A DNA stretch of 57,230 bases, taken from IMG/VR virus record IMGVR_UViG_3300025120_012119, positions 1-57,230 of that record. One strand, written 5' to 3'. Below the pieces are notes generated by a model. The model did not search any database. It saw only the letters and a list, made by a program, of their open reading frames with translations, and had not been told where the DNA came from. The stretch comes from a virus (Duplodnaviria; Caudoviricetes). A program made the translations under genes and the position numbers. Below, one piece after another: positions 1 to 53,471 of this stretch (its first letter is position 1; every line of letters begins with the position of its first letter).

Positions 1-2570
1 GTGGTGATTTAAAAATTTATCATGATAGTAGTAATAGTTACATAGAGGATCAAGGGCAAGGATTTTTATTTTTAAGAGCAGCAAATTCACTTGTATTAGA
101 AGATAATCTTGGTGGTAATTATTTTAGAGGAACTAAAGGAGGAGTAACAGCAGATTCACTTGCTGGTGTAGTTCAATTATATTTTAGTGGTTCTGAAAAA
201 TTTAGAACTACAGGTTCAGGTATTTTTATTACAGGTTCTATAAGTGCTTCTGGTTTATTAAATATTAGTGCATCTGAAAATCCAGGGCAATCATATGGAG
301 TATTAGTAAGAGATGAATCTACAGGATTAGTTTATTATACAGGTTCATATGGAAGTGGTGGTGGTGCTACTACAGATGGAATATTTAATGTTGTAACAGG
401 TACTATTTTTGGTACTACTTCTTCATTACAAGTAACAGGAAGTACAATACAACAATCACCATTTACAACAACAGGAGCTAATATAACAGCTTCAAATGCA
501 GGAACAGGAGGGGGAACAGCTAAATATGCTTTAACTGTAAGTGAATCAGTATGGCATTATACAGATAATGTAGGAGTTCCTACATCAAAAGCATGGAAAA
601 CAGATTTAGATGGCTCATATTTTAATAATTTTGACCATAATACAGACACAGCAGAAATAGTAAGGTTTATGGCAGGTTTATTAAGTGCCTCTGCACCAGA
701 CGCAGCCCCAAATACACGTACTTACGCGAGTTTAGGCGTATCTACATCCAATAATGGTACTGGAACAGCACCTAGCGGACGTGTGCCTCAATCAAGTACT
801 AACGACGTAATTAATTATTTAAATTCAAAAGGATTTGCAACTCCAGGTTCAACTATATTTAGTGGAATTAGCCCAATTTACAATAATTCATCATTTAAAA
901 AAGAATATTCATCAGTAGCAGGAGGTTCAACAATTGTTTCTTCATCAGTAGATACTCAACTGTTTGGTTTAGGAAATATAGGACAAGCATTTAATGTATC
1001 AGGATCAGATCAATATATATTTTATAATAACTCAGCAAAAAGTCCAGTTACAGCAACCTCAACCTCTGTTCATCTTTTATCAAAAACAGGACCAGGAACA
1101 GCAAATGGTTTAACTATAGGAAATATTGCAACTGGTAATGCTTTAATCCCTGATGCTTATCAAGATGGTAAATTTGTAAGTATTTTTGATCAATTATTAT
1201 ATAATGGTGGTGTTGGTTTAGGTAATGTAACTTCATCAGGTTATTATTATTTTTCATCTTCAGTTGCTGTACAATCAGGTTCATCTAATTATTCAGATTT
1301 CTTTGCTCAAAATGAAGAAATATTTTATGCCCCAACAACAGCAATTAATAGTGGCATATCAACAAACACACCAGCTATAGGGTATTTTGGTAGTCAATCA
1401 TTAACAGCAACATCAAGATCATTATCAGGTGCTGCTTATTTAAGAGGAGCAACTTGGGAATCTTCAGCTTCAATAACAAATGCATTTGATCCAATGTTTG
1501 CATCAAGTACTACATTTGCAAGAATATTTGAATCTAATGGAATATTAGTAATTAATAATGGAGCAGGTGGTGTTGATTTAGGAAGTACAAATGGTGGTTC
1601 AGTTCAAACATCTAATTTTATATTTGATTCTACAGGAACAACTGCTAGAGTAATTGGAACTGTCCCAACAGAAAATGATTTAGTAAAATTAGGAGGTAGT
1701 TTAGTAGTAGATGCTGGTACTACAGGTACAACTAATATAGGACAAGCTACAATTAACCCAACAACATTTACTACAGAAGATAGGTGTAGAAGAAGAAATG
1801 GAGTTGATATAAATACAAATACAAATACATATGAGTTCTTTAAACCCGGGACATATGGAGCTTTAGTAGCATCAGGTTCAATGGCTTATTATGGTAGAGC
1901 TCAAGGATATGACGGAAGTGCATTAGTTGGAACAACTTCATGGACAGAAAATTTCTCGGGAGAAGATAATAGAATAAAAATTAATAATAACTTACTTGTA
2001 GGAACATATGCTGGTGGTGATAAATTTACTACATCTACATATGATGAATATATTTTAGATCCTTTAGAATTACAAGTAAAACCTGGCTATTTAGTTGAAG
2101 CCGGTGGTTCATTTGGGTATTGGTCTCCAGCAAACCCATCATCAGGAGATTATATTTATTATGCTAGAGCATTTCAAAGAAATTTAAATACAGGAGCAGG
2201 AAGTGTAACAATGAGTTTAGGTACTACTTTACAAGCTTGGAATTCAACATCGAATGGTATATCAGCAGCAATAATATTTAAAAGTTCAGGAACCGGAAAT
2301 TATACTCCACCAAGAATATATGACCCAACTGCAACTACAGATAACCTTATTATTGCTAGCCAAGCTAATGATGGTTTTATTAACCCATTTACATCTAACA
2401 TTGCTTTATATGGTAATGTTGGTGGTAGTATAAGTGGAAATAATTATAACATGCCAATGAGAAATGGAGATGGTATGGTTTTAGATGCTTCAGATCAAGA
2501 CTTTATAGTTATAATAAGATATAAAAATGATCCAACACCAATAACAAGTATAAATATAACAATTGCATAA
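1..2570 (+). CDS. Large virion structural / tail-fibre-like protein, 5'-truncated by the window edge
   Basis: The frame of ORF 669..2570 stays open back to base 3 (GDLKIYHDSSNSYIEDQGQG...), so the ATG at 669 is internal. The DLKIYHD..NSYI motif and G/S/T-rich composition are typical of phage fibre proteins. Stop TAA at 2568-2570. Confidence 0.7.
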   Translation, partial: GDLKIYHDSSNSYIEDQGQGFLFLRAANSLVLEDNLGGNYFRGTKGGVTADSLAGVVQLYFSGSEKFRTTGSGIFITGSISASGLLNISASENPGQSYGVLVRDESTGLVYYTGSYGSGGGATTDGIFNVVTGTIFGTTSSLQVTGSTIQQSPFTTTGANITASNAGTGGGTAKYALTVSESVWHYTDNVGVPTSKAWKTDLDGSYFNNFDHNTDTAEIVRFMAGLLSASAPDAAPNTRTYASLGVSTSNNGTGTAPSGRVPQSSTNDVINYLNSKGFATPGSTIFSGISPIYNNSSFKKEYSSVAGGSTIVSSSVDTQLFGLGNIGQAFNVSGSDQYIFYNNSAKSPVTATSTSVHLLSKTGPGTANGLTIGNIATGNALIPDAYQDGKFVSIFDQLLYNGGVGLGNVTSSGYYYFSSSVAVQSGSSNYSDFFAQNEEIFYAPTTAINSGISTNTPAIGYFGSQSLTATSRSLSGAAYLRGATWESSASITNAFDPMFASSTTFARIFESNGILVINNGAGGVDLGSTNGGSVQTSNFIFDSTGTTARVIGTVPTENDLVKLGGSLVVDAGTTGTTNIGQATINPTTFTTEDRCRRRNGVDINTNTNTYEFFKPGTYGALVASGSMAYYGRAQGYDGSALVGTTSWTENFSGEDNRIKINNNLLVGTYAGGDKFTTSTYDEYILDPLELQVKPGYLVEAGGSFGYWSPANPSSGDYIYYARAFQRNLNTGAGSVTMSLGTTLQAWNSTSNGISAAIIFKSSGTGNYTPPRIYDPTATTDNLIIASQANDGFINPFTSNIALYGNVGGSISGNNYNMPMRNGDGMVLDASDQDFIVIIRYKNDPTPITSINITIA

Positions 2571-2578: not shown

Positions 2579-5500
2579 ATGGCATTAGATAAAACTAAAA
2601 AATCAAATAGGTTACTTGCGAGTAGGAGGTATACGATGGAACAAAGTTCGGATGCTCAAGAAGCATTCACAAGTGTACTTGACATCAATGCATCTGAAGT
2701 TTATATTGACCAAGCAGCTATCCCAACTACAGGTTTACCATACTCAGGGAGTACTCAAAATGGAGAATATGTGTTATCTGGTAGTGCTAATTTATTAAGA
2801 TATTATTATCAAGAACAATTAACACCCTCAAATGTTGTTAATGGTTCAAAAACAGAAGTATTCTTTTTAATATCAGCATCAGGACATAACCCAGCAACTG
2901 CAGTAACACCTCAAATTATACAAGCAGGTCAACAAGGTAGTTTTATTTCTCCAAAATATTCGGATCCATCTTTAACAAATGCTGATACAGAAGATTTAAC
3001 ACCAGGTTATAATGTAACTATTAGAGTAAATGGTACTAAACAAAACCCATCAAATTATCAGTTTGATTATAAAACAGGTGTAATACAGTTTGTGGATGCA
3101 GATGTAGCACCTACTACAGGTGATACAGTAAAATGTTCAGTTTATCAATATGTTGGTAGAACATTAAGTGATAGTGCTGGAGGTAGTGGACAAGGTTTCC
3201 CATTTTCAGGATCAGCTCAGATTACAGGATCAGTTGGAGGAGTAGCTGGAGGGTTTGCAGTAACAGGTAGTAGTACTTTTGATATAAGTGGAACAGGAGA
3301 TGATTTTAAAATAGAATCAGCACCAATACAAGATTTTCCTTTTGTATTAACATATGCAACAGGATCTGGTAAAATAGGATATGTTGAAGTATCATCAGGT
3401 ACAAGTGGTGTAGCAGGTTCAAATGGTTCTGCTGGTGTATCAGGAACAAGTGGTTCATCAGGTTCATCAGGAGCGACTGGTACTAATGGATCTTCAGGTC
3501 TTGCAGGTGTAAGTGGTTTAAGTGGAACTAATGGTTCTTCAGGATCATCAGGTGACGATGGTACTACAGGTTCAAGTGGAGAAAGTGGAACTTCGGGTTC
3601 AAGTGGAACTTCAGGTTCAAGTGGGACAACAGGTTCAGCAGGTTCTTCAGGAGCAGATGGAACTTCAGGTTCATCAGGTTTAGCTGGTGTTTCAGGATTA
3701 AGTGGAACTAATGGTTCATCAGGTTCATCAGGTGATGATGGAACAACAGGATCATCAGGTGAAAGTAAAACTTCAGGTTCAGCAGGTACAAGTGGATCTT
3801 CAGGTGAATCAGGAACAGTAGGTTCAAGTGGTTTAAGTGCAACTTCAGGTTCACAAGGTTCAAGTGGAGTAGCAGGTGCTTCAGGTTTAGCAGGAACAGC
3901 AGGTTCATCAGGATCATCAGGTGCAGATGGAACTACGGGTTCTTCAGGTGAAAGTAAAACTTCAGGATCTTCAGGTACAAATGGATCTTCAGGTGGAAAT
4001 GGAACTAATGGTTCATCAGGTCTTGCAGGTGCAAGTGGTTTAAGTGGTACTAATGGTTCATCAGGTTCTTCAGGAGATGATGGTACAACGGGTTCAAGTG
4101 GAGAAAGTAAAACTTCAGGTTCAGCAGGATCAAGTGGTTCATCAGGTGGTAGTGGTACTGTAGGTTCAAGTGGTTTAAGCGCGACATCAGGTTCACAAGG
4201 TTCAAGTGGTGTGGCAGGAGCGTCAGGTTTAGCAGCAACAGCAGGTTCATCAGGTTCTTCAGGAGCTGATGGAACAACAGGCTCAGCAGGTTTATCAGGT
4301 CAAGCAAATACTTCAGGCTCAGCAGGTACAAGTGGTTCAAACGGTTCTTCAGGTAATGATGGTACTTCAGGTTCATCAGGTCTTGCAGGTGTAAGTGGTT
4401 TAAGTGGTACTAATGGCTCTTCTGGATCATCAGGAGACGATGGTACAACAGGTTCAAGTGGAGAAAGTGCAACTTCAGGATCTACAGGATCTTCAGGTTT
4501 AAGTGGTGGTTCAGGAACAGTAGGATCTTCAGGAGCAAGTGCAACTTCAGGATCTACGGGATCTAGTGGTGTAGCAGGAGCATCAGGTTTAGCAGCAACA
4601 GCAGGTTCATCAGGTTCTTCAGGAGCTGATGGAACAACAGGCTCAAGTGGAGAAAGTGGAGGAAGTGGAACTTCAGGCTCAGCAGGTACAAGTGGTTCAA
4701 ATGGTTCTTCAGGAGATAATGGAACTTCAGGTTCATCAGGTTTAGCTGGTGTCTCAGGATTAAGTGGAACTAATGGTTCATCAGGTTCTTCAGGAGATGA
4801 TGGTACTACAGGTTCAAGTGGAGAAAGTAAAACTTCTGGATCTTCAGGTACAAATGGTTCAAGTGGTGGAAGTGGTACAGTAGGATCTTCAGGTGCATCA
4901 GCAACAGCTGGTTCATCAGGTTCAAATGGTTCAAGTGGTAATGCAGGAGAAGCAGGAGCAAGTGCAACTTCAGGTTCTTCAGGAACTTCAGGTTCTGTAG
5001 GTTCATCAGGTGATTCAGGTGGTAGTGGAACAGCAGGCTCTTCGGGAGCAAGTGCAACTTCAGGTTCACAAGGTTCAAGTGGTGTATCAGCTGCTTCAGG
5101 ATTAAGTGGAACAGCAGGTTCATCAGGATCAAGTGGCGCAGATGGTACTACTGGTTCTTCAGGAGATAGTGCAACTTCAGGTTCAACTGGTTCTTCAGGT
5201 GCCAGTGGTGGTTCAGGAACAGTAGGATCTTCAGGAAGTAGTCAAACATCAGGATCTTCGGGTTCAAACGGTTCTTCAGGTAATACGGGTGCAGCAGGTC
5301 AAAGTGCATCTTCAAATACTTCAGGATCTAGTGGTACAAATGGTTCTTCAGGTGATTCAGGAGGTAGTGGAACATCAGGTTCTTCAGGTTTAAGTGGACA
5401 ATCTGGTACAAATGGTTCAGCTGGATCTAGTGGAGTATCAGGTGTAGCAGGGAATAGTGGAACAGCAGGTTCATCAGGTTCTTCAGGAGCTGATGGGACA

Positions 5501-8500
5501 ACAGGTTCATCAGGTGAAAGTGCAACTTCGGGTTCAACAGGATCAAGTGGTTTAAGTAAAGCATCAGGAACAGCAGGTTCAAGTGGTTTAAGTAAAGCAT
5601 CAGGAACAGCAGGGTCATCAGGTTCGAGTGGATCTTCAGGTAATACAGGTGCAGCAGGTCAAAGTGCTTCTTCAAATACTTCAGGATCTTCAGGAACAAA
5701 TGGTTCATCAGGTGACTCAGGTGGAAGCGGTACTTCAGGTTCTTCAGGACAAAGTGGACAATCAGGAACAAATGGTTCAGCTGGATCTTCAGGTGTAGCA
5801 GGAGCTTCAGGTAATAGTGGAACTGCAGGTTCATCAGGATCAAGTGGTGCAGATGGTACTACTGGTTCTTCAGGAGATAGTGCAACTTCAGGTTCAACTG
5901 GTTCTTCAGGTGCCAGTGGAGGCAGTGGTACAGTAGGTTCATCAGGTGAAAGTAAAACATCAGGATCTTCGGGTTCAAACGGATCTTCAGGTAATACGGG
6001 TGCAGCAGGTCAAAGTGCATCTTCAAACACTTCAGGATCTTCAGGAACAAATGGTTCATCTGGTGATTCAGGTGGAAGCGGTACTTCAGGATCTTCAGGT
6101 TTAAGTGGACAATCAGGTACAAATGGTTCAGCTGGATCTAGTGGAGTAGCAGGTGCTTCAGGATTAAGTGGAACAGCAGGTTCGTCAGGTTCTTCAGGAA
6201 GAGATGGAACTACAGGTTCTTCAGGAGCAAGTGCAACTTCAGGTTCAACTGGTTCTTCAGGTGCCAGTGGAGGTTCAGGAACAGTAGGATCTTCAGGTGA
6301 AAGTAAAACATCAGGATCTTCGGGTTCAAACGGATCTTCAGGTAACACAGGTAATGCGGGTCAAAGTGCTTCTTCAAACACTTCAGGATCTAGTGGTACA
6401 AATGGTTCATCAGGTGATTCGGGTGGAAGTGGTACTTCAGGTTCTTCAGGTTTAAGTGGTGGTTCAGGTACAAATGGTTCAGCTGGATCTAGTGGAGTAG
6501 ATGGTGCTTCAGGATTAAGTGGAACTGCGGGTTCATCAGGACAAAGTGGTGCAGATGGAACAACAGGATCAAGTGGGGAAAGTGCAACTTCAGGTTCAAC
6601 TGGTTCTTCAGGTGCTAGTGGAGGTTCAGGAACAGTAGGATCTTCAGGAAGTAGTCAAACATCAGGATCTTCAGGTTCAAACGGTTCTTCAGGTAACACA
6701 GGTAATGCTGGTCAAAGTGCATCTTCAAACACTTCAGGATCTTCAGGAACAAATGGTTCGTCAGGTGATTCAGGTGGAAGTGGTACTTCAGGTTCTTCAG
6801 GACAGAGTGGTGGTTCAGGTACAAACGGTTCAAATGGATCTTCAGGTGTAGCAGGTGCTTCAGGATTAAGTGGAACAGCTGGTTCATCAGGACAAAGTGG
6901 TGCAGATGGAACAACAGGATCAAGTGGGGAAAGTGCAACTTCGGGTTCAACGGGATCAAGTGGTTTAAGTAAAGCATCAGGAACAACAGGGTCATCAGGA
7001 AGTAGTCAAACATCAGGATCTTCAGGTTCAAATGGTTCCTCAGGTAATACAGGTAATGCAGGTCAAAGTGCAGGTTCTGCAACTAGTGGTTCATCAGGAA
7101 CAAATGGCTCATCTGGTGATTCAGGTGGAAGTGGTACTTCAGGATCTTCAGGTTTAAGTGGTGGTTCAGGTACAAATGGTTCAAACGGATCTTCAGGTGT
7201 AGCAGGAGCTTCAGGATTAAGTGGAACAGCAGGTTCATCAGGATCAAGTGGGGCAGATGGAACAACAGGTTCTTCAGGTAATGCTGGTGGATCAGGTCAA
7301 AGTGCAGGATCAGGTACTTCTGGATCTTCAGGTTCAAATGGTTCAAATGGTAATACTGGTGCAGCAGGTGCAAGTAAATCATCAGCTACAAGTGGTTCAT
7401 CAGGATCAAATGGTTCAACTGGTAATGCCGGTGCAGCAGGTCAAAGTGCATCTTCAAATACTTCAGGATCTAGTGGAACAAATGGTTCGTCAGGTGATTC
7501 AGGAGGTAGTGGTACTTCAGGTTCTTCAGGACAAAGTGGTGGTTCAGGAACAAATGGTTCAAACGGTTCAAGTGGAGTAGCAGGTGCTTCAGGATTAAGT
7601 GGAACAGCAGGTTCGGCAGGATCTTCAGGTGCTGATGGTACAACAGGTTCTTCAGGTAATTCTGGAGGATCAGGTCAAAGTGCAGGATCAGGAACTTCAG
7701 GTTCATCAGGATCAAATGGTTCAAACGGTAACACAGGTGGAGCAGGTGCAAGTAGAGCATCAGGTACTTCAGGTTCAACAGGATCTTCAGGTTCAACAGG
7801 TGCTACAGGTGGGGCAGGTGCAAGTAAATCATCAAATACTTCAGGATCTAGTGGAACAAATGGTTCAAATGGTAACGCTGGTGCAGCAGGTGCTTCAGCA
7901 GTAAGTGGTGAATCAGGAACTTCAGGTTCAAATGGTTCAAATGGAGCAGCAGGTGCTACAGGTGCTGGCGGTCAAAGTGGACAATCAGGTACTAATGGTT
8001 CAAATGGTTCAAATGGAGTAGCAGGTGCTTCAGGATTAAGTGGAACAGCAGGTTCAGCAGGATCTTCAGGAGGAGATGGAACTACAGGTTCAAGTGGTAA
8101 TTCTGGAGGATCAGGTCAAAGTGCAGGATCAGGTACTTCTGGATCTTCGGGTTCAAACGGTTCAAATGGTAATACAGGAGGATCAGGTGCAAGTAGGGCA
8201 TCAGGAACTTCAGGTTCAACAGGAACTTCAGGTTCAACAGGTGCTACAGGTGGAGCAGGAGCAAGTAGATCATCAAACACTTCAGGATCTAGTGGTACAA
8301 ATGGTTCAAATGGTGTTGCGGGTAATGCAGGTGCTTCAGCCGTAAGTGGTGAATCAGGAACTTCAGGTTCAAATGGTTCAAATGGAGCAGCAGGTGCTAC
8401 AGGTGCTAGTGGTCAAAGTGGACAATCAGGTACTAATGGTTCAAATGGTTCAAATGGTAATGCAGGTGCTTCAGGATTAAGTGGAACAGCAGGTTCAGCA

Positions 8501-10207
8501 GGATCTTCAGGAGCAGATGGAACTACAGGTTCAAGTGGTGATTCTGGAGGATCAGGTCAAAGTGCAGGATCAGGTACTTCAGGTTCAACAGGAACAACAG
8601 GTTCAAACGGTAACACAGGTGGTACAGGTTCTTCAGCACAAAGTGGTCAATCAGGAACATCAGGTTCAAATGGTTCAAATGGTAATACAGGTAATACTGG
8701 TAATTCAGGACAAAGTGGCCAATCAGGTACTTCAGGATCAAATGGTTCAAGTGGTAACACAGGAGCAGCAGGTGCAAGTAGAGCATCTAATACATCAGGA
8801 TCTTCAGGTTCAGCAGGATCTTCAGGTATAACAGGTGCAACTGGTGCTAGTGCCTCTTCAAATACTTCAGGATCTAGTGGTACAAATGGATCAACAGGTG
8901 CTACAGGTGGAGCAGGTGCAAGTAAATCATCAAATACTTCAGGTTCATCAGGTACAAATGGTTCAAATGGTAATACAGGAGGAGCAGGTGCAAGTAGATT
9001 ATCAGGAACAAGTGGATCTTCAGGATCTAATGGTTCAAGTGGTGACACAGGTAATAATGGTGCTTCAGCACAAAGTGGCCAATCAGGTACTTCAGGTTCA
9101 AATGGTTCAAATGGTAATACAGGAGGAGCAGGTGCAAGTAGACTATCAGGTACTTCAGGTTCATCAGGTTCAACAGGATCTAGTGGTAATACAGGTGGAG
9201 CAGGAGCAAGTAAATTATCAGGAACAAGTGGATCTTCAGGTTCAAATGGTGTAGCAGGTGCTTCAGGATTAAGTGGAACAGCAGGTTCAGCAGGATCTTC
9301 AGGAGCAGACGGTACAACAGGTTCTTCAGGTAATGGTGGTGGATCAGGTCAAAGTGCAGGATCAGGAACAAGTGGATCTTCAGGTTCAACAGGATCTAAT
9401 GGTAATACAGGAGGAGCAGGTGCAAGTAGACTATCAGGTACTTCAGGTTCAACAGGATCTTCAGGTTCAACAGGTGCTACAGGTGGATCAGGAGCAAGTA
9501 AAGGATCAGGTACTTCAGGATCAAGTGGTTCAACTGGTAATAATGGAGCAGTTGGTGGATCAGGTGCAAGTGCTGTATCAGGTACTTCAGGATCAAATGG
9601 TTCAGCAGGTAATGGAGGTTCACCAGGTGGATCAGGTGGATCAGGTACTTCAGGTACTTCAGGAACAGCTGGATCTTCAGGTGTAATAGGTGGTTCAGGA
9701 TCTTCAATTACAATAACAACTACAGCTCCTTTAAGAATAGCAGGTGCCGCAAGTGCTACATTAGACCAAAGTAGAACTTTATCACTTGATTTAGGTGCAG
9801 GAAATTTAGTATATCCAGAAAGAAATACAGATGGTTTTAGTGGTGATGAAGTTACTTTTGGATCACAATTAGCTAATAATACTACATATCTCATATATTG
9901 TTTAGGACAAGATGGTATATGGAGAACAGCAGATAAAGATTCTTCTAACCAAGCAACAGGAACATTAGCAATTGCTATGGGTGCTAGTGCTTCTACTAAT
10001 GGTATGTTTGTTAGAGGTATAGTATTTGCCGAAGAAAATTTTGGAGAATTAGGTACAGGTGATACTTTATATGTAGGTGATAACGGTATCCCAACAGCAA
10101 CAGCTCCAACATCAGCTGGTGATTATGTAAGAATAATAGGACAAGTAACTGATGTAGCAGGTCAAATTTGGTTTGATCCAGATAAAACATATGTATTAAA
10201 TTCATAA
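2579..10207 (+). CDS. Giant (2542 aa) Gly-X-Y Ser/Thr-rich repeat fibre-like virion protein with globular N- and C-terminal domains
   Basis: About 270-aa non-repetitive N-terminus, about 2100-aa tripeptide repeat, about 165-aa C-terminus (LYVGDNG..TAPTSAGDYVRIIG..IWFDPD, resembling capsid-fibre/cement-type tip domains). Confidence 0.75.
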   Translation: MALDKTKKSNRLLASRRYTMEQSSDAQEAFTSVLDINASEVYIDQAAIPTTGLPYSGSTQNGEYVLSGSANLLRYYYQEQLTPSNVVNGSKTEVFFLISASGHNPATAVTPQIIQAGQQGSFISPKYSDPSLTNADTEDLTPGYNVTIRVNGTKQNPSNYQFDYKTGVIQFVDADVAPTTGDTVKCSVYQYVGRTLSDSAGGSGQGFPFSGSAQITGSVGGVAGGFAVTGSSTFDISGTGDDFKIESAPIQDFPFVLTYATGSGKIGYVEVSSGTSGVAGSNGSAGVSGTSGSSGSSGATGTNGSSGLAGVSGLSGTNGSSGSSGDDGTTGSSGESGTSGSSGTSGSSGTTGSAGSSGADGTSGSSGLAGVSGLSGTNGSSGSSGDDGTTGSSGESKTSGSAGTSGSSGESGTVGSSGLSATSGSQGSSGVAGASGLAGTAGSSGSSGADGTTGSSGESKTSGSSGTNGSSGGNGTNGSSGLAGASGLSGTNGSSGSSGDDGTTGSSGESKTSGSAGSSGSSGGSGTVGSSGLSATSGSQGSSGVAGASGLAATAGSSGSSGADGTTGSAGLSGQANTSGSAGTSGSNGSSGNDGTSGSSGLAGVSGLSGTNGSSGSSGDDGTTGSSGESATSGSTGSSGLSGGSGTVGSSGASATSGSTGSSGVAGASGLAATAGSSGSSGADGTTGSSGESGGSGTSGSAGTSGSNGSSGDNGTSGSSGLAGVSGLSGTNGSSGSSGDDGTTGSSGESKTSGSSGTNGSSGGSGTVGSSGASATAGSSGSNGSSGNAGEAGASATSGSSGTSGSVGSSGDSGGSGTAGSSGASATSGSQGSSGVSAASGLSGTAGSSGSSGADGTTGSSGDSATSGSTGSSGASGGSGTVGSSGSSQTSGSSGSNGSSGNTGAAGQSASSNTSGSSGTNGSSGDSGGSGTSGSSGLSGQSGTNGSAGSSGVSGVAGNSGTAGSSGSSGADGTTGSSGESATSGSTGSSGLSKASGTAGSSGLSKASGTAGSSGSSGSSGNTGAAGQSASSNTSGSSGTNGSSGDSGGSGTSGSSGQSGQSGTNGSAGSSGVAGASGNSGTAGSSGSSGADGTTGSSGDSATSGSTGSSGASGGSGTVGSSGESKTSGSSGSNGSSGNTGAAGQSASSNTSGSSGTNGSSGDSGGSGTSGSSGLSGQSGTNGSAGSSGVAGASGLSGTAGSSGSSGRDGTTGSSGASATSGSTGSSGASGGSGTVGSSGESKTSGSSGSNGSSGNTGNAGQSASSNTSGSSGTNGSSGDSGGSGTSGSSGLSGGSGTNGSAGSSGVDGASGLSGTAGSSGQSGADGTTGSSGESATSGSTGSSGASGGSGTVGSSGSSQTSGSSGSNGSSGNTGNAGQSASSNTSGSSGTNGSSGDSGGSGTSGSSGQSGGSGTNGSNGSSGVAGASGLSGTAGSSGQSGADGTTGSSGESATSGSTGSSGLSKASGTTGSSGSSQTSGSSGSNGSSGNTGNAGQSAGSATSGSSGTNGSSGDSGGSGTSGSSGLSGGSGTNGSNGSSGVAGASGLSGTAGSSGSSGADGTTGSSGNAGGSGQSAGSGTSGSSGSNGSNGNTGAAGASKSSATSGSSGSNGSTGNAGAAGQSASSNTSGSSGTNGSSGDSGGSGTSGSSGQSGGSGTNGSNGSSGVAGASGLSGTAGSAGSSGADGTTGSSGNSGGSGQSAGSGTSGSSGSNGSNGNTGGAGASRASGTSGSTGSSGSTGATGGAGASKSSNTSGSSGTNGSNGNAGAAGASAVSGESGTSGSNGSNGAAGATGAGGQSGQSGTNGSNGSNGVAGASGLSGTAGSAGSSGGDGTTGSSGNSGGSGQSAGSGTSGSSGSNGSNGNTGGSGASRASGTSGSTGTSGSTGATGGAGASRSSNTSGSSGTNGSNGVAGNAGASAVSGESGTSGSNGSNGAAGATGASGQSGQSGTNGSNGSNGNAGASGLSGTAGSAGSSGADGTTGSSGDSGGSGQSAGSGTSGSTGTTGSNGNTGGTGSSAQSGQSGTSGSNGSNGNTGNTGNSGQSGQSGTSGSNGSSGNTGAAGASRASNTSGSSGSAGSSGITGATGASASSNTSGSSGTNGSTGATGGAGASKSSNTSGSSGTNGSNGNTGGAGASRLSGTSGSSGSNGSSGDTGNNGASAQSGQSGTSGSNGSNGNTGGAGASRLSGTSGSSGSTGSSGNTGGAGASKLSGTSGSSGSNGVAGASGLSGTAGSAGSSGADGTTGSSGNGGGSGQSAGSGTSGSSGSTGSNGNTGGAGASRLSGTSGSTGSSGSTGATGGSGASKGSGTSGSSGSTGNNGAVGGSGASAVSGTSGSNGSAGNGGSPGGSGGSGTSGTSGTAGSSGVIGGSGSSITITTTAPLRIAGAASATLDQSRTLSLDLGAGNLVYPERNTDGFSGDEVTFGSQLANNTTYLIYCLGQDGIWRTADKDSSNQATGTLAIAMGASASTNGMFVRGIVFAEENFGELGTGDTLYVGDNGIPTATAPTSAGDYVRIIGQVTDVAGQIWFDPDKTYVLNS
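3398..9706 (+). repeat. Coding 9-bp-periodic repeat (GGN-TCN-TCN type) with higher-order units of about 170-440 bp
   Basis: 6309 nt = 701 x 9. The anchor G(A/D)DGTTGS recurs at 3551, 3731, 3920, 4073, 4262, 4433, 4622, 4793, 5135, 5486, 5846, 6197, 6548, 6899, 7250, 7628, 8069, 8510 and 9302, and all spacings are multiples of 9. Confidence 0.95.
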
Positions 10208-10210
10208 AAT

Positions 10211-10774
10211 ATGTCTTATATATCTCAAAGTTTAACATTTAGTGAAGATAAAATAATATTTGCTGACGTAGAAAATAATGAATTTGAAGTTATGATGGAT
10301 TGGGAAAATCCTCTAATGTCAGCTTCAGCAGCTTATATATGTGAAGGAGGAGGTGATATACTTGAAATTGGATTTGGAATGGGTATATCAGCTAATTATA
10401 TTCAATCACATACAATTAATTCACATACTATTATAGAAAACCACCCAGATATGATTCCAAAAGCTCAAGCATGGGCTGCTGATAAATCTAATGTAACTAT
10501 AGTAGAAGGTGATTGGTATGGTGTAAAAGATACTTTAAGTACTTATGATGGTTTATTTATGGATACTTATGGAGATAAGAATATGAAATATTTTTCATCT
10601 TCATTATCATCATTAATAAAAGTAGGAGGAAAAGCTACTTGGTGGAATTCAATGACAGGATCAGATAATTATTATAATATACCTGAGGTAACATATGATA
10701 TCCACAATATAACTCCTCCATCAAACACATATTTTAACCACACACAATATTATTTGCCCAAAAAACAGTTTTAA
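10211..10774 (+). CDS. Class I SAM-dependent methyltransferase, GAMT/RMT2-like
   Basis: VMMDWENPLM, motif I ILEIGFGMGISA, HTIIENHP, YDGLFMDTY. Confidence 0.8.
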   Translation: MSYISQSLTFSEDKIIFADVENNEFEVMMDWENPLMSASAAYICEGGGDILEIGFGMGISANYIQSHTINSHTIIENHPDMIPKAQAWAADKSNVTIVEGDWYGVKDTLSTYDGLFMDTYGDKNMKYFSSSLSSLIKVGGKATWWNSMTGSDNYYNIPEVTYDIHNITPPSNTYFNHTQYYLPKKQF

Positions 10775-11541: not shown

Positions 11542-14226
11542 ATGCAAAAACTCTTATTTATTGCACCCCACCTATCTACAGGGGGACTTCCCCAATATTT
11601 AACAAAAAAGATAGAACTTTTAAAAGGTGAATTTGAAATTTATTTAATTGAATGGACAGACTGTACTGGAGGTAAACTAGTAGTAACTAAAAATAAAATT
11701 CAAAAATTACTTCCAAAGAAAAATTTTTATACACTTTATGAAGATAAAAGTAAATTATTTACTATAATTCGAAAAATTAATCCTGATATTATTCATTTAG
11801 AAGAAATTCCTGAATATTTTATGGATGATGATATAGCTCAAAAATTATATAATGTAAATAGAAATTATTTTTTAGTTGAAACATCACATGATTCTTCAAT
11901 GAATACTGATAATAAATTATATTTTCCAGATAAATTTATGTTTGTATCTAATTGGCAAATAGAGCAATATAAGAACATAGATATACCTAAAATACTAGTT
12001 GAATATCCTATTGAATATATTCCTAGACCTGATAGAGAAATTGCTTTAAAACGCTTAAATTTAGATCCTACTAAAAAACATATTTTACATATTGGTTTAT
12101 TCACATCACGTAAAAATCAAAAAGAATTTTTTGAATATGCTAGAGCTTTACCTGAGTATGAGTTTCATAGTGTAGGAAATCAAGCAGAAAATTTTAAATG
12201 GTATTGGGAGCCATTAATGAAAGATAAACCAAATAATGTTACATGGTGGAATGAAAGAACAGATGTAGATAATTTTTACCAATCAATGGATTTATTTTTA
12301 TTTACATCTAGAGGAAGTAAAAATGATAAAGAAACAATGCCCTTAGTTATTAGAGAAGCTTTATCATATCAAATTCCACAACTATTATATAATTTAGAGG
12401 TTTATCAAAATTATTTTGATAGTTATGATTCTATTAATTATTTAGATTTTAATAGTTTTGATAAAAATATTTTAAGGATTAAAGAACACTTTAATGATAT
12501 TAATATTCTTAAAGAAGAAGAAGAAGCATATGTAATTTGTACTTACCCTAAAACTCAAGCAGTAGTAGATACTACAATAGAGTGTATTAAATCATTAAGA
12601 AAAAATAGCAATAGAAAAATTATAATATCAGCACATTGTCCTGTACCTAAAGAATTACAAGATATGGTTGATTATGTATTTTATGAAAAAAATAATTTAT
12701 TAACTAAACATACATTTTACTCTGGATATACAGCAAGTAATAATTTATATGATACTTATGTTAATTTAAGAGGTGAAGACAATGATAGATACCATGGTCC
12801 TGCTTGTTATACTTCATTTTACAACCCAGCTACATTTGCTAAAGGGTTAGATATTAAAAAATTATATTATATTAATTTTGATTATATTCTTAAAGATAGT
12901 AGTTACATAGATTATATATCTAAAAAATTAAATAAACATGATACTTTCTTTGGTGAATTTAAAGCACAAGAAGGTAAATGTTATTATACATACTTTTTTG
13001 CGGCAAGACCAGAAGCAATTTTAAATAATTGTCATTTTATAGAAACAGAAGATCAATATAATAATCTTATGAGTAAGCATGGTGCTGAATCTAATGGTAT
13101 AGAAAATTTATATTATCATATATTTAAAAATAATACTAATAATTATATTGAACCTAAAGAAAAATTTGAATCTGATGCTGAAAAATATTTTGAGTTTGAA
13201 GATTATTCGATGGTTGAATATTATACTATACTACCTACAGATGTAGAGAATCATTTTTGTCCTTGGATAACAATATCAAATGCTAAAGAAAGTAAAAATA
13301 TTCATTATACTGTAGAAAAAAATAAAGAACTTATTATTGATAGAACATTAGAAGTTAGGGGTAAATATCAATTTTGGGATTTAGTAAAATATGATTTAAA
13401 TGACAACATTACAGTCATATTTGATGTAAAAGATACTAATACAGGAGAAAGTGTAAAATATCATAAATTTAATTTAAATAAAGATTATTTTTTAAATATA
13501 ATGCCTAATAATGGTATGTTTAATTGGAAAGGTGATAGAATTAATTATGAATCTTATCCAAAAATTAAAATCGTACATTTATTAACACACCCAGAAGAAG
13601 AAAGAGAGATACGTTCAATTGAATCTATCAGCAAACTAGGAGAATACGATAATATAGAATATACATCTGTAATTAATACTCCTTATACTGATTTACCACC
13701 AACACAAAATTGTAATAGACCAAATGATGTTCAGATGGAACCTGGTTATTATAAATTAGCTCCTGGACATTATGGGTGTTTTAAAGCACATACAGATGCT
13801 ATATTATCATGTCCTAAAGATAATAATACTGTTTATTTATTTTTTGAATGTGATGCTTTATTATTAAAAGACCATAATGAATTTGTTAATAAATTAAATG
13901 AAGCAATAAAAATTTCAAAAGAAAAAGATTATACATTCTTTAGTTTTGCCCACAATTATGAAATATTTCATGAATATGAAACTCATATTGATGCTGGCAT
14001 GTTTACAGATGCTCATGCTTATATAATTAGAGGTAATAAAATTGATAATGTACACGATAGGATTAATAATTCAAAATGGGATGCTTTTGATTTATGGGTA
14101 ACTAACAACTTTAGAGATGAACCCAAAGGATTTTTTAAAGAACCTTTAGTATTTCAAGCAAAGGGGTACAGTTTAATAGATAAAAAAATTAGTAAAACTA
14201 ATATTAAAGGAGATTTAAAAATATAA
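11542..14226 (+). CDS. Multidomain glycosyltransferase (N-terminal GT4/GT-B, central GT-A-like, C-terminal GT25-like)
   Basis: HLSTGGLP, LHIGLFTSRKNQ, DLFLFTS..ETMPLVIREAL (GT4); YYINFDY; GHYGCFKAH..LFFECDA (GT25-like). Confidence 0.8.
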   Translation: MQKLLFIAPHLSTGGLPQYLTKKIELLKGEFEIYLIEWTDCTGGKLVVTKNKIQKLLPKKNFYTLYEDKSKLFTIIRKINPDIIHLEEIPEYFMDDDIAQKLYNVNRNYFLVETSHDSSMNTDNKLYFPDKFMFVSNWQIEQYKNIDIPKILVEYPIEYIPRPDREIALKRLNLDPTKKHILHIGLFTSRKNQKEFFEYARALPEYEFHSVGNQAENFKWYWEPLMKDKPNNVTWWNERTDVDNFYQSMDLFLFTSRGSKNDKETMPLVIREALSYQIPQLLYNLEVYQNYFDSYDSINYLDFNSFDKNILRIKEHFNDINILKEEEEAYVICTYPKTQAVVDTTIECIKSLRKNSNRKIIISAHCPVPKELQDMVDYVFYEKNNLLTKHTFYSGYTASNNLYDTYVNLRGEDNDRYHGPACYTSFYNPATFAKGLDIKKLYYINFDYILKDSSYIDYISKKLNKHDTFFGEFKAQEGKCYYTYFFAARPEAILNNCHFIETEDQYNNLMSKHGAESNGIENLYYHIFKNNTNNYIEPKEKFESDAEKYFEFEDYSMVEYYTILPTDVENHFCPWITISNAKESKNIHYTVEKNKELIIDRTLEVRGKYQFWDLVKYDLNDNITVIFDVKDTNTGESVKYHKFNLNKDYFLNIMPNNGMFNWKGDRINYESYPKIKIVHLLTHPEEEREIRSIESISKLGEYDNIEYTSVINTPYTDLPPTQNCNRPNDVQMEPGYYKLAPGHYGCFKAHTDAILSCPKDNNTVYLFFECDALLLKDHNEFVNKLNEAIKISKEKDYTFFSFAHNYEIFHEYETHIDAGMFTDAHAYIIRGNKIDNVHDRINNSKWDAFDLWVTNNFRDEPKGFFKEPLVFQAKGYSLIDKKISKTNIKGDLKI

Positions 14227-15107
14227 TGAATAAATTTATTGACATAAAGGTTACAGGTGCACAAGCACAATTGCGCTCATCAACTACAATAGAAGTAGCA
14301 GTAAAAGATAATATCAAATTCTTTTTTCCAGAAGATAATTTACCTTTAAAAGTTGAAATTTTTAGAACTCATGGTGATAATAAATTATATGAAGTTGATT
14401 TAATCCCAGGTAGAAAATGTTGGCATAATTGGTTTGATGGTTGTACTTTAAAAATATCTACATCTAAAGGAGTTGAAGTTGGTAAAGTTCAATGGAATAG
14501 TTTAGAACATGGAACTCAATCAGAAATAGCATTTGATTTATGGTGTGCTTCAAATTTAAATACTAAAGGTGTTGCTATAGGAACAAATGATGGGTCAACA
14601 GGAGAATGGGTTCATTTATATCACCGTCAACTTTTTTCTAAAGTATTATTAGTTGAAGCATCTACTGATCCATTTTTAAAATTAAAACAAAATTATAATG
14701 ATCAAAATGTTACTTTATTAAATAAATTAATTACTCCAAAAGGAGGTAAAGTAAAATTTTATGAAGCTTTAGATGGTGAAGGTCATACTAATTCTGTAGA
14801 TAAAGAACATTTATTAAATTTTTATTCTAATATACAAGAAGTTGAAAAAGAATCTATAGGTATTAATGAACTTTTAGTTGAAAATAAATTTAATAATTTA
14901 GATTGGTTACATATTGATGTAGAAGGTATAGATGATGAGTTAATAATGGCTTTAGATTTTAACAAAATTTCAAAGCCTAAAGTTATTATTTATGAAAGAG
15001 TTAATGATATTAATGAAATAAAAGTAGAAGACTTTTTACATTCAAATGGGTATAAAATTTGGGTAGATGATAAAAAAGGATATAATAATATAGCATTTTT
15101 AAAATGA
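14226..15107 (+). CDS. FkbM-family SAM methyltransferase with an N-terminal extension
   Basis: IGTNDG, LLVEAS, DWLHIDVEGID, PKVIIYE. Confidence 0.75.
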   Translation: MNKFIDIKVTGAQAQLRSSTTIEVAVKDNIKFFFPEDNLPLKVEIFRTHGDNKLYEVDLIPGRKCWHNWFDGCTLKISTSKGVEVGKVQWNSLEHGTQSEIAFDLWCASNLNTKGVAIGTNDGSTGEWVHLYHRQLFSKVLLVEASTDPFLKLKQNYNDQNVTLLNKLITPKGGKVKFYEALDGEGHTNSVDKEHLLNFYSNIQEVEKESIGINELLVENKFNNLDWLHIDVEGIDDELIMALDFNKISKPKVIIYERVNDINEIKVEDFLHSNGYKIWVDDKKGYNNIAFLK

Positions 15108-22135: not shown

Positions 22136-22150
22136 GAATTAGAGAATATA

Positions 22151-22159
22151 ATATTTATA
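22151..22159 (+). promoter_or_regulatory. Putative late promoter ATATTTATA
   Basis: In the sheath-tube intergenic region. Confidence 0.55.
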
Positions 22160-22190
22160 ACTGAATAAAAAAATTAAATAAAAACACAAA

Positions 22191-53462: not shown

Positions 53463-53471
53463 AAGAATAAC

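What the first reader, a model, noticed from the sequence alone, without database searches (positions are those of the whole stretch)
3398..9706. About 2100-residue, essentially proline-free Gly-X-Y repeat in unbroken register
Seen: 701 consecutive 9-bp units with X/Y mostly S, T, A, N, one Pro and no aromatic residues. Gly is periodically replaced (GES-KTS, GLS-ATS, GQS-ASS-NTS) without losing register, and N-G-S/N-T-S triplets are abundant. Known: collagen needs strict Gly and is usually Pro-rich, while Gly-X-X polyproline-II bundles (snow-flea antifreeze protein, T-even gp38 adhesin) also use this periodicity. Inference: either an unusual collagen-like filament (about 600 nm at 0.286 nm/residue) or a stacked PPII-bundle solenoid with turns at the non-Gly positions, possibly ice- or glycan-binding.
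Basis: partly seen in the sequence, partly recalled or inferred. Interest (0 to 1): 0.7.

Follow-up and report, generated by a model that had tools for sequence, protein, structure and literature searches.

The report
Giant proline-free collagen-like phage fibre
A marine phage encodes a 2,542-residue fibre protein whose middle is 701 proline-free Gly-X-Y triplets, and it always travels with a set of sugar-adding enzymes, so it is probably a very long sugar-coated collagen-like fibre on the virus particle.

Summary
ORF 2579-10207 (+) encodes 2,542 aa. Residues 274-2376 are 701 triplets in one register, with Gly in 629, one Pro and no aromatic residue.

It is a modular virion fibre of a T4-like myovirus, probably with a Bacteroidota host:
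- The N-terminal domain is shared with many other long phage fibres.
- The C-terminal 125-aa domain has the fold of capsid cement/decoration proteins. It is predicted to form a homotrimer: ipSAE 0.94, best control 0.00.

Related contigs carry tracts of 347, 665 and at least 1,014 triplets. The kind of tract is therefore real. The exact length here could not be confirmed from reads.

The new point is the gene downstream. ORF 16745-17947 is a clear Aah/TibC-family protein O-heptosyltransferase, sitting with two GT1 glycosyltransferases. Nineteen of 20 informative lineages that carry this enzyme have a Pro-poor Gly-X-Y tract just upstream. Relatives without Gly-X-Y lack the enzyme.

Best reading: an O-glycosylated, homotrimeric, collagen-like fibre. 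The triple helix itself is not shown. The polyproline-II bundle idea gained no support and ice binding has none.

The parts
2579..10207 (+). Whole fibre gene, 2,542 aa: N-terminal domain, Gly-X-Y rod, C-terminal domain
   Evidence: One open frame. Complete or truncated homologues lie in 16 IMG/VR loci.
2579..3397 (+). N-terminal domain (aa 1-273; conserved core aa 1-196), the probable virion-attachment end
   Evidence: 48-92% identical across 13 aligned relatives, with 52 invariant columns. It is also N-terminal in 44 other fibres of 1,398-2,665 aa that lack Gly-X-Y. No Pfam, PHROG or PDB match. The AlphaFold2 model failed at mean pLDDT 40.7.
3398..9706 (+). 701 Gly-X-Y triplets (aa 274-2376), proline-free and 43% Ser+Thr
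   Evidence: Pfam Collagen 587.6 bits. G+C is 0.44-0.47 against 0.24-0.35 in the rest of the window.
9707..10204 (+). C-terminal domain (aa 2377-2542; folded core about aa 2419-2542, nt 9833-10204): trimer-forming knob with a cement/decoration-type fold
   Evidence: Homotrimer model ipSAE 0.94 against best control 0.00. AlphaFold2 pLDDT 83-94. VIA-align Z 9.6-8.2 to five phage or archaeal-virus capsid entries, at least one of them a cement protein. There are 1,547 sequence relatives, at or near the C-terminal end in almost all of the 150 listed. 41% identical to the end of Flavobacterium phage immuto 'tail fiber protein'.
16745..17947 (+). Aah/TibC-family protein O-heptosyltransferase (BAHT), 400 aa
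   Evidence: PDB 4RAP TibC E 9.3e-64 over aa 45-388. NCBIfam TIGR04414 321 bits against cut-off 200. Catalytic, sugar-binding and iron-finger residues are kept.
11542..14226 (+). GT1-family glycosyltransferase, 894 aa, part of the conserved cassette
   Evidence: Pfam Glycos_transf_1 E 9.6e-11. Present in 54 of 80 TibC-like loci; the others lack enough upstream DNA.
15104..16057 (+). GT1-family glycosyltransferase, 317 aa, part of the conserved cassette
   Evidence: Pfam Glycos_transf_1 E 3.8e-08. Present in 75 of 80 TibC-like loci.
10211..10774 (+). Methyltransferase-like protein, 187 aa (accessory)
   Evidence: Pfam Methyltransf_25 E 4.9e-05, below the cut-off. Present in 5 of 80 loci.
14226..15107 (+). 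FkbM-family methyltransferase, 293 aa (accessory)
   Evidence: Pfam Methyltransf_21 34.3 bits against cut-off 22.7. Present in 4 of 80 loci.
16038..16748 (+). 236-aa protein with a weak glycosyltransferase-like match (accessory)
   Evidence: NCBIfam TIGR04440 E 5.7e-05, 23 bits against cut-off 70. Present in 4 of 80 loci.
3..2570 (+). Upstream Ser/Thr/Gly-rich fibre-like protein, cut by the window start; constant neighbour of the fibre gene
   Evidence: A homologue lies directly upstream of the N-domain gene in 15 of 16 loci. In L012 it is instead fused behind the N-domain and Gly-X-Y tract. No family match.
19832..22679 (+). Tail sheath and tail tube genes (context)
   Evidence: Pfam Phage_sheath_1C, Phage_sheath_1 and T4 gp19. 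Downstream of the glycosyltransferase in 80 (sheath) and 79 (tube) of 80 loci.

Best explanation
The ORF encodes a very long fibre of the virion of a T4-like myovirus, probably one that infects Bacteroidota.

Proposed parts:
- The conserved N-terminal domain fastens the fibre to the particle (inferred).
- Three chains are brought into register by the C-terminal knob, which has a cement-type fold (predicted).
- The 701 Gly-X-Y triplets form a collagen-like, three-chain rod or tether, up to about 600 nm at 0.286 nm per residue (inferred).

Proposed modification: before assembly, in the cytoplasm, the co-inherited cassette of an Aah/TibC-type O-heptosyltransferase and two GT1 enzymes loads sugars onto the 911 Ser/Thr of the rod. 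Methyltransferases are added in this phage (inferred from gene linkage).

Proposed role of the sugars: the glycan coat takes over the stabilising and hydrating role that proline, hydroxyproline or charged pairs play in other collagens. It may also shield the fibre from proteases.

Proposed function: the fibre widens the capture radius for host cells or particles (speculative).
For: Shown:
- One frame of 2,542 aa with 701 in-register triplets.
- Selection on Gly. Codon positions 1/2 change 3-5 times more slowly than in X/Y codons, while position 3 changes equally fast.
- Strong X/Y asymmetry: L 37 v 0, E 16 v 0, Q 31 v 3, N 36 v 73.
- Pfam Collagen 587.6 bits.

Fibre identity:
- Myovirus context: sheath, tube, gp32, UvsX-like and DnaB-like genes. 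A close relative has a gp23-type capsid gene upstream.
- The N-domain heads 44 other long fibres, some ending in a Peptidase_S74 chaperone domain.
- The C-domain matches the end of an annotated tail fibre in the syntenic position of phage immuto.

Trimer: score 0.94, best of 3 controls 0.00.
- That mark was reached by 20 of 30 proteins solved as pairs of one chain and by 1 of 23 solved as single chains.
- Runs agree in at least 71% of contacts and partner pLDDT is at least 63.
- Confident contacts lie only in residues 147-308 of the 313-aa piece, i.e. the C-domain.
- Trimeric cement proteins of this fold have been solved, so the pass may reflect that likeness.

Length class is independent of this assembly: tracts of 347 (L054), 665 (L006, complete ORF in a 158-kb, 97%-complete contig), at least 527 (L005) and at least 1,014 triplets (L010).

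Glycosylation:
- TibC match E 9.3e-64. TIGR04414 scores 321 bits against a cut-off of 200.
- Asp110, Lys230, Arg286, Trp305 and Cys339/342/358/370 are kept.
- 165 viral stretches encode this enzyme.
- Of the best 80 loci, a Gly-X-Y tract lies upstream on the same strand in 31 of 32 with at least 6.5 kb upstream, 11 of 15 with 4.5-6.5 kb, and 0 of 33 with less, where the DNA is too short to reach it.
- By lineage (90% enzyme identity): 19 of 20 informative clusters.
- Fibres with the same N-domain but no Gly-X-Y lack the enzyme: L013/14/15/17 and L018 in a 66-kb contig.
- Phage immuto is not among the 4 GenBank phage records that match the enzyme.

Precedent: BclA, a collagen-like protein, is glycosylated, which is thought to aid its hydration network (passages of PMC8968730).
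Against: No triple helix is shown.
- The trimer model placed only the C-domain with confidence. Total contacts ranged from 477 to 1,916 between runs.
- The tract has almost no Pro (1 of 2,103) and few charged residues (78 of 2,103). These are the stabilisers described for bacterial collagens.
- Ten per cent of Gly positions are substituted, including bulky K and R. The figure is 21% in L010.
- (Gly-Ser-Ser)n resembles flexible linkers used in protein engineering (recalled, from no call).

The link between glycosyltransferase and fibre rests on gene neighbourhood.
- All 80 loci share one synteny of fibre, glycosyltransferases, sheath and tube. Linkage could be partly inherited gene order.
- Glycosyltransferases next to tail-fibre genes in pelagimyophages were read as host-LPS modifiers (passages of PMC7029224).
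- Known BAHT substrates are beta-helical autotransporters, not Gly-X-Y (PMC4358343).
- No GmhA match (one heptose-pathway gene) was found in the window, the 97%-complete relative or G003. There was only a sub-threshold RfaE-domain-II-like match in that relative.
- The two residues named for heptose stereoselectivity differ here: Pro300 to Gly and Ser294 to Lys.

The C-domain fold is that of capsid-binding cement proteins and of the phi29 head-fibre base. Which end holds the virion is therefore open.

The exact tract length is unconfirmed.
Confidence: 0.5

Rival explanations
1. A glycosylated but non-triple-helical tether. The Ser/Thr-rich tract is a mucin-like or serine-rich-repeat-like chain, extended and flexible. 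It is held as three loosely associated chains by its end domains. The Gly at every third place serves the glycosyltransferase (spacing of acceptor sites) or chain flexibility rather than helix packing.
For: - The composition is close to Gly/Ser linkers, with no Pro and few charges.
- L016 carries pure (Gly-Ser-Ser)-type tracts of 60-148 triplets between globular domains.
- Neither the monomer nor the trimer model gave the tract an ordered structure.
- In Microcystis phage Mel-JY01 the TibC-like enzyme sits beside a Ser-rich fibre protein that has no Gly-X-Y.
- Ten to 21% of Gly positions are substituted.
Against: - Gly is under stronger constraint than X/Y.
- X and Y positions have distinct residue preferences. 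A random coil does not need that.
- The register is unbroken over 701, 665 and at least 1,014 triplets in three lineages.
- A Pro-free tract directly abuts a Pro-rich collagen-like tract in one ORF of a 735-kb phage.
Confidence: 0.28
2. A polyproline-II (polyglycine-II-like) bundle or solenoid, as in snow-flea antifreeze protein or the phage S16 gp38 adhesin. The non-Gly triplets would be the turns.
For: - Gly at every third residue with small polar X/Y residues.
- Regular interruptions every 8 triplets in the C-terminal third (22 of 71 spacings), which could mark turns.
- Absence of Pro leaves all backbone NH groups free for inter-strand bonds (inference).
Against: - AlphaFold2 on one chain covering 49 triplets of the 8-triplet-repeat zone gave pLDDT 36-49 and no compact fold.
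- In this tract every interruption is a whole triplet, or a run of them, that keeps the register. Turns would not need this, though L070-L072 do have register shifts.
- Long stretches run 23-26 triplets without any interruption. That is far longer than the roughly 10-residue strands of known bundles (recalled).
- A trimerising end domain fits a three-chain rod better.
Confidence: 0.07
3. The glycosyltransferase cassette is unrelated to the fibre. It would modify host surface polysaccharide (superinfection exclusion) or another virion protein, and the fibre is not glycosylated.
For: - This is the usual reading of glycosyltransferases in the tail-fibre regions of marine myophages (passages of PMC7029224).
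- The GT1 enzymes' best NCBIfam matches are glycolipid or teichuronic enzymes, far below their cut-offs.
- All the linkage evidence comes from one syntenic clade.
Against: - The third enzyme passes the equivalog cut-off of a family known only as cytoplasmic protein O-glycosyltransferases, and keeps the catalytic and iron-finger residues.
- Presence and absence track the Gly-X-Y tract across lineages: 19 of 20 with it, and two Gly-X-Y-less fibre lineages in viral contigs without it.
- Cultured phage immuto, whose syntenic fibre has no Gly-X-Y, is also absent from the enzyme's GenBank matches.
Confidence: 0.15
4. The tract exists but its length and internal order here are an assembly artefact of short reads collapsing or expanding 351-b and 72-b repeats.
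For: - The window is a metagenome contig.
- In four public runs the tract is covered only by contigs of about 150-830 b, with many repeat joints, and none spans it.
- Ten of the 16 related contigs break off inside the tract.
Against: - The frame stays open for 6.3 kb and joins both conserved end domains in frame.
- Units differ by 11-22% at the DNA level, enough to anchor reads.
- Independent contigs give 665 triplets in a complete ORF and at least 1,014 triplets.
- At least 12 other loci hold 550-627 triplets up to the edge of the fetched DNA.
Confidence: 0.15

Closest known systems
BclA exosporium glycoprotein of Bacillus (collagen-like region plus C-terminal trimeric knob)
   Same: A Gly-X-Y rod rich in Thr, a C-terminal globular domain that trimerises, and O-glycosylation of the collagen-like region. 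The result is a hair-like surface filament (passages of PMC8968730; details of the knob recalled).
   Different: BclA triplets are mostly Gly-Pro-Thr and its rod has tens of triplets (recalled). Here Pro is 1 of 2,103 residues and the rod has 701 triplets. The end-domain fold and the glycosyltransferases differ.
Collagen-like tail fibres of prophages (E. coli O157 prophage collagens; streptococcal phage proteins)
   Same: Gly-X-Y tracts set inside phage fibre proteins between non-collagen domains (abstract of PMC3368898 in the listing).
   Different: Those tracts are short and contain Pro (recalled). No glycosyltransferase cassette is described in the abstract I saw. I did not read the text.
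TibC/TibA and Aah/AIDA-I (bacterial autotransporter heptosyltransferases and their adhesins)
   Same: The enzyme: full-length match, catalytic Asp, sugar-binding Lys/Arg/Trp and the four iron-finger Cys. Also a Ser-rich, highly repetitive, extended surface protein encoded close by.
   Different: The presumed substrate is a Gly-X-Y tract of a phage protein, not a beta-helical autotransporter passenger. Two residues named for heptose stereoselectivity differ. No GmhA (one heptose-pathway gene) was found, only a sub-threshold RfaE-domain-II-like match.
T4 fibritin (wac) and phi29 head fibre gp8.5
   Same: Overall plan: an attachment domain, a long three-chain rod and a small trimerising end domain. 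The gene lies between neck-type and sheath genes, as wac does in T4 (gene order recalled). The C-domain shares its fold with the gp8.5 base at Z 5.3.
   Different: Their rods are coiled coils of about 50 nm (recalled), not Gly-X-Y. The cement-type domain of gp8.5 is N-terminal and binds the capsid; here it is C-terminal.
Snow-flea antifreeze protein and phage S16 gp38 polyglycine-II sandwich
   Same: Three-residue Gly periodicity with small residues.
   Different: Those are compact bundles of short strands joined by turns (recalled). No such fold was predicted here, and this tract is 2,103 residues in one register.

Membership tests
Collagen-like (triple-helix) proteins | Long run of Gly-X-Y with Gly at every third residue | tested here: met
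   629 of 701 triplets start with Gly. All 72 exceptions keep the register. Pfam PF01391 scores 587.6 bits against a cut-off of 27.2.
Collagen-like (triple-helix) proteins | Adjacent domain that brings three chains together | tested here: met
   Prediction only. C-domain homotrimer ipSAE 0.94 against best control 0.00, with confident contacts in residues 147-308 of the piece.
Collagen-like (triple-helix) proteins | Stabilising residues: Pro/Hyp, or many charged or polar pairs, as in known bacterial collagens | tested here: not met
   Pro 1 of 2,103; D+E+K+R 78 of 2,103. For comparison, Pro fills 19% of X positions across all bacterial collagens (PMC8968730 Table 1). Polar Ser/Thr are abundant at 43%.
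Collagen-like (triple-helix) proteins | Actual triple helix (CD maximum near 225 nm, cooperative melting, protease resistance) | not testable with these tools
   The models left the tract at low confidence.
Polyproline-II / polyglycine-II bundles (snow-flea AFP, S16 gp38) | Compact stack of short Gly-X-X strands joined by turns within one chain | tested here: inconclusive
   The single-chain AlphaFold2 model of 49 triplets has pLDDT 36-49 and no contacts of that kind. Uninterrupted runs reach 23-26 triplets.
Aah/TibC autotransporter heptosyltransferases (BAHT), for ORF 16745-17947 | Full-length sequence membership | tested here: met
   TIGR04414 (equivalog) scores 321.1 bits against a cut-off of 200 over aa 43-393. 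TibC 4RAP matches at E 9.3e-64.
Aah/TibC autotransporter heptosyltransferases (BAHT), for ORF 16745-17947 | Catalytic base Asp110; sugar-binding Thr226, Lys230, Arg286, Trp305; iron finger Cys339/342/358/370 | tested here: met
   Counted by hand on the alignment, against the residues named in PMC4358343. All are kept except Thr226, which is Ser. The family alignment in that paper's figure supplement was not seen.
Aah/TibC autotransporter heptosyltransferases (BAHT), for ORF 16745-17947 | Substrate is an autotransporter passenger; donor is ADP-heptose | tested here: not met
   None of the Pfam-scanned ORFs of the window matched an autotransporter family. No GmhA and only a sub-threshold RfaE-domain-II-like match in the 97%-complete relative. 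Pro300 and Ser294 are replaced. The donor sugar remains unknown.
Phage capsid cement/decoration fold (Pfam Phage_cement, Phage_cement_2), for the C-domain | Fold similarity over the whole domain | tested here: met
   VIA-align against 48,161 chains:
- 8saj: Z 9.6, rmsd 3.0, 114 aligned
- 8qsy: Z 9.3
- 8hdt_G: Z 8.9
- 7kmx: Z 8.7
- 8giu: Z 8.2

Foldseek gives the same entries but weakly, best E 8.8e-3. The tool notes that a best Z of 7-8 is common by chance.
Phage capsid cement/decoration fold (Pfam Phage_cement, Phage_cement_2), for the C-domain | Sequence membership and capsid binding | tested here: inconclusive
   The window's C-domain has no Pfam match at E up to 0.1. Of 32 relatives, 2 touch Phage_cement_2 (best E 0.015) and 1 touches Phage_cement (0.0084). 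An Atlas lead scored 0.87. Capsid binding cannot be tested here.

The most novel reading that the evidence does not exclude
This is a new kind of collagen: a proline-free triple helix, 0.35 to more than 0.85 micrometre long. Its folding and stability would depend on dense O-glycosylation of Ser/Thr by a phage-encoded TibC-type enzyme plus two GT1 enzymes. It would be the first substrate of this enzyme family outside bacterial autotransporters, and a widespread long-range capture fibre of aquatic myoviruses.
Probability: 0.3. Interest if true: 0.8.

Novelty: new variant of a known kind. Interest (0 to 1): 0.62.

Why it matters
Collagen-like tracts in phage fibres are known. One that is twice the length of a fibrillar collagen helix, lacks proline and is tied to its own protein-glycosylation cassette is not in the papers my searches reached.

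If the tract is a triple helix, it tests how far sugars and hydration can replace imino acids. It would also offer a genetically simple, hydroxylase-free design for very long recombinant collagen.

If it is not a triple helix, it is a phage counterpart of bacterial serine-rich glycoprotein fibrils.

Either way:
- It gives a concrete role, modifying the fibre itself, to glycosyltransferases that sit next to fibre genes in marine phages and are usually ascribed to host-LPS modification.
- It extends the TibC family to viruses: 165 viral stretches encode a relative.
- A fibre five or more times longer than a typical myovirus tail (tail length recalled) would change estimates of phage-host encounter rates in water.

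Tried and rejected
- **N-domain fold.** AlphaFold2 with 14 sequences gave mean pLDDT 40.7, which is unusable. Pfam, PHROGs, a PDB profile search and the Atlas gave nothing above noise.
- **Upstream protein.** No Pfam, PHROG or PDB match.
- **Read support for the length.** Of 21 runs listed, 6 hold half or more of the sampled words. I laid four runs from four studies. All 30 bins have cover, but only by contigs of about 150-830 b with many repeat joints, and none spans the tract. The length is neither confirmed nor refuted.
- **Trimer model of the rod.** Confident contacts were confined to the C-domain. Nothing can be said about the Gly-X-Y part.
- **GenBank phages.** The N-domain has no match in 50,697 records. 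The tract's DNA matches only two records of one 735-kb uncultured phage. So no cultured phage with micrographs is at hand.
- **PDB sequence search of the two GT1 enzymes.** No match.
- **Heptose pathway.** No GmhA match; only a sub-threshold nucleotidyltransferase match (112.5 bits against a cut-off of 181.5) in the relative.
- **Ice binding.** No test was available and nothing points to it.
- **N-glycosylation of the 68 N-x-S/T sites.** Considered. No Pfam or NCBIfam match of the cassette proteins was to an HMW1C-type N-glycosyltransferase, so O-linkage is the working assumption.
- **Literature.** The search 'TibC' + 'bacteriophage' returned only noise from another abbreviation. 'Mel-JY01' and 'collagen-like' + 'Flavobacterium phage' returned nothing.
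Full report
**1. The observation**

ORF 2579-10207 on the + strand is open for 2,542 codons. Window 3398-9706 is in frame with it and gives 701 triplets.
- Gly is first in 629 triplets. The 72 exceptions are A 36, K 14, N 12, R 7 and Q 3, and none shifts the register.
- There is one Pro and no F, Y, W, H, C or M. Ser+Thr make up 911 of 2,103 residues.
The unit corresponds to a 351-b period with 7.7 copies at 80% matches.
- The tract has 0.44-0.47 G+C in a window that otherwise has 0.24-0.35.

The periodicity is maintained by selection rather than being a fresh slippage product. Four in-phase units are only 78-89% identical in DNA. Their Gly codons differ at the third base as often as other codons do (0.30), yet 3-5 times less often at the first two bases: 0.043 and 0.026, against 0.11-0.14.

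X and Y positions are not interchangeable. Leu (37 v 0), Glu (16 v 0), Gln (31 v 3) and Gly (49 v 3) sit in X, while Asn prefers Y (73 v 36). Lys sits only in the Gly phase, and so do 7 of the 8 Arg.

**2. What the protein is**

The window is a whole IMG/VR viral record, estimated 35% complete.
- It carries tail sheath and tube genes, plus gp32, a RecA/UvsX-like gene, a DnaB-like helicase and ribonucleotide reductase.
- One protein has a type-IX-secretion sorting domain, which points to a Bacteroidota host (inference).
- The nearest cultured phage is Flavobacterium phage vB_FspM_immuto, with sheath 52% identical.

The protein has three parts.

*N-terminal domain.* Its first 196-273 residues recur at the start of fibre genes in 16 viral contigs. 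They also head 44 further proteins of 1,398-2,665 aa that have no Gly-X-Y at all. Those proteins end in varied tips, two of them with a Peptidase_S74 chaperone domain. A constant N-end with interchangeable rods and tips is the pattern of phage fibres that attach by their N-terminus (inference). Its fold could not be obtained.

*C-terminal domain.* The last 125 or so residues fold with pLDDT 83-94.
- Over their whole length they resemble chains from phage and archaeal-virus capsid entries (the hit descriptions name the entries, not the chains): 8saj Z 9.6, 8qsy 9.3, 8hdt_G 8.9, 7kmx 8.7 and 8giu 8.2.
- They resemble more weakly the C-terminal chaperone fragment of phi29 gp12 (Z 7.0) and the base of the phi29 head fibre (Z 5.3). 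Foldseek gives the same theme with a best E of 8.8e-3.
- The domain has 1,547 sequence relatives, at or near the C-terminal end in almost all of the 150 listed. None of those 150 carries 30 or more residues of Gly-X-Y.
- It is 41% identical to the end of the immuto 'tail fiber protein', which sits in the same place upstream of the sheath gene.

*Trimer prediction.* Three copies of the last 313 residues gave a score of 0.94, with the best of 3 controls at 0.00.
- That mark was reached by 20 of 30 proteins solved as pairs of one chain and by 1 of 23 solved as single chains.
- Runs agree in at least 71% of contacts and the partner's pLDDT is at least 63.
- The confident contacts lie only in the C-domain. 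Trimeric cement proteins have been solved, so the pass may reflect that likeness.

*Gene position.* In the 97%-complete relative the order is: gp23-type capsid gene, a few small genes including a weak adaptor-like one, the upstream fibre-like gene, this gene, the glycosyltransferases, then sheath and tube. The protein is therefore a virion fibre. Whether it hangs from the baseplate, the neck or the capsid is open.

**3. Is the long tract real?**

Reads could not settle this contig. Public contigs of four runs cover every part of it, but in pieces of 150-830 b, and none spans it.

The kind of tract is confirmed by other assemblies:
- L006: a complete 2,467-aa ORF with 665 triplets.
- L010: at least 1,014 triplets, running off its contig.
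- L005: at least 527 triplets.
- L054: a complete gene with 347 triplets.
- At least a dozen loci with 550-627 triplets up to the edge of the fetched DNA.

All of these are nearly Pro-free. Some relatives differ:
- L016 has nine tracts of 60-148 perfect triplets, mostly Gly-Ser-Ser, between domains of about 110 aa.
- L070-L072 show register shifts.

**4.

Directly downstream lie seven genes:
- a methyltransferase-like gene
- an unknown gene
- a GT1 enzyme of 894 aa
- an FkbM methyltransferase
- a GT1 enzyme of 317 aa
- a weak glycosyltransferase-like gene
- ORF 16745-17947

ORF 16745-17947 matches TibC (PDB 4RAP) at E 9.3e-64 over 344 residues. It passes the NCBIfam equivalog model for Aah/TibC O-heptosyltransferases at 321 bits against a cut-off of 200.

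I counted along the printed alignment against the residues named in the TibC structure paper. The catalytic Asp110, Lys230, Arg286, Trp305 and all four iron-finger cysteines are kept, and Thr226 is Ser. The two residues tied to heptose stereoselectivity are replaced. This family is known only as cytoplasmic enzymes that load heptose on Ser of repetitive adhesins (PMC4358343: abstract and passages).

*Linkage.* 165 viral stretches encode a relative of this enzyme. I examined the best 80.
- All 80 have the sheath gene and 79 the tube gene downstream. The 317-aa GT1 is present in 75 and the 894-aa GT1 in 54; the rest lack enough upstream DNA.
- A Gly-X-Y tract of at least 15 triplets lies upstream on the same strand in 31 of 32 loci with at least 6.5 kb upstream, and in 11 of 15 with 4.5-6.5 kb. 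It is in none of 33 with less, where the DNA cannot reach it.
- Many loci are near-duplicates. At 90% enzyme identity there are 35 clusters, of which 20 are informative, and 19 of those have a Pro-poor tract.
- The exception (L096/L097) has Pro-rich collagen-like segments instead.

*The converse.* Fibres with the same N-domain but no Gly-X-Y have no such enzyme between them and the sheath gene (L013/14/15/17), or anywhere in a 66-kb contig (L018). Phage immuto is not among the 4 GenBank phage records that match the enzyme.

*Against.* All of this comes from one syntenic clade. In Microcystis phage Mel-JY01 the enzyme, fused to an FkbM domain, sits beside a Ser-rich fibre protein that is not Gly-X-Y.

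**5. How it most likely works**

Shown: a modular fibre gene, a selected Gly-X-Y periodicity, a bona fide TibC-family enzyme, and conserved linkage between the two.

Predicted: a trimeric C-terminal knob.

Inferred: three chains are registered by the knob and form a collagen-like rod of up to about 600 nm. The cassette O-glycosylates its Ser/Thr in the cytoplasm. The glycans supply the hydration and stiffness that proline or charge supply elsewhere. BclA is the known glycosylated precedent.

Speculative: the fibre acts as a long capture line.

I put 0.5 on this whole package. Taken separately, my own rough estimates are about 0.9 that it is a virion fibre, 0.75 that it is glycosylated by the cassette, and 0.55 that the tract is a true triple helix.

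Points against a helix:
- near-zero Pro and few charges
- 10% non-Gly triplets here and 21% in L010, including Lys and Arg in the buried position
- no structural model of the tract

Points for a helix, beyond periodicity:
- the X/Y asymmetry
- the trimer knob
- a 735-kb phage in which a Pro-free G-T/S tract of 93 triplets abuts a Pro-rich tract of 163 triplets in one ORF

**6. Rivals**

- A glycosylated flexible tether (0.28).
- A polyproline-II bundle (0.07). It has no support from the single-chain model, and uninterrupted runs of 23-26 triplets fit it badly.
- Glycosyltransferases that serve host-surface modification instead, as proposed for pelagimyophages (0.15).
- A wrong length from assembly (0.15).

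Ice binding has no evidence.

**7. Novelty**

Collagen-like tracts in phage fibres and glycosylated bacterial collagens are known. My searches found no paper that joins a phage collagen-like fibre to a TibC-type enzyme or describes proline-free giant tracts. Those searches cover open-access text only, and supplements were closed.

I rate it a new variant of a known kind, of moderate to high interest.

Noticed in passing
window 51658-52506, 53374-54288, 56549-57229: QueC, a radical-SAM protein and GTP cyclohydrolase I lie together. This suggests 7-deazaguanine modification of the phage DNA. A 2023 NAR paper on such modifications mentions phage immuto (search listing only).
   Followed up: no
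window 43065-46298: A 1,077-aa phage protein has a type-IX-secretion C-terminal sorting domain (E 3.7e-11) and weak CBM48/AMPK-CBM matches. It is a clue to a Bacteroidota host, and an unusual secreted phage product.
   Followed up: no
window 8086-9638; L009; L019: Lys, and 7 of the 8 Arg, occur only in the Gly phase. A motif G-[L/A]-S-[K/R/Q]-x-S-G recurs every 8 triplets (24 residues) in the C-terminal third of the tract and in relatives L009 and L019. This conserved, regular interruption is unexplained.
   Followed up: partly
L016 9753-20174 (G003): A 3,473-aa fibre with the same N-domain. It has nine perfect Gly-X-Y tracts (60-148 triplets, 53% Ser) separated by domains of about 110 aa, and an end like a Peptidase_S74 chaperone. 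A TibC-like gene lies 3.3 kb downstream.
   Followed up: partly
L012 10001-14890: The N-domain and two 68-triplet G-T-S/T tracts are fused to a homologue of the upstream fibre-like protein (47% identity). The two neighbouring genes of the window can therefore occur as one.
   Followed up: no
L109 (LR756501.1 392000-418000): A 735-kb uncultured phage has ORFs of 2,271 and 3,488 aa (stop to stop) with Pro-free G-S/T tracts up to 308 triplets. One tract abuts a Pro-rich tract of 163 triplets. The same genome has a TibC-like gene about 175 kb away.
   Followed up: partly
L107 4750-8430 (Microcystis phage Mel-JY01): The TibC-like domain is the C-terminal part of a 1,226-aa ORF annotated 'methyltransferase FkbM'. 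It lies just after a Ser-rich 508-aa 'structural protein', and a 'cytidylyltransferase like protein' lies 3 kb downstream.
   Followed up: partly
L006 2482-3931: A phosphatidylserine-decarboxylase-like gene and PhoH sit between the gp23-type capsid gene and the neck and fibre genes of the 158-kb relative.
   Followed up: no
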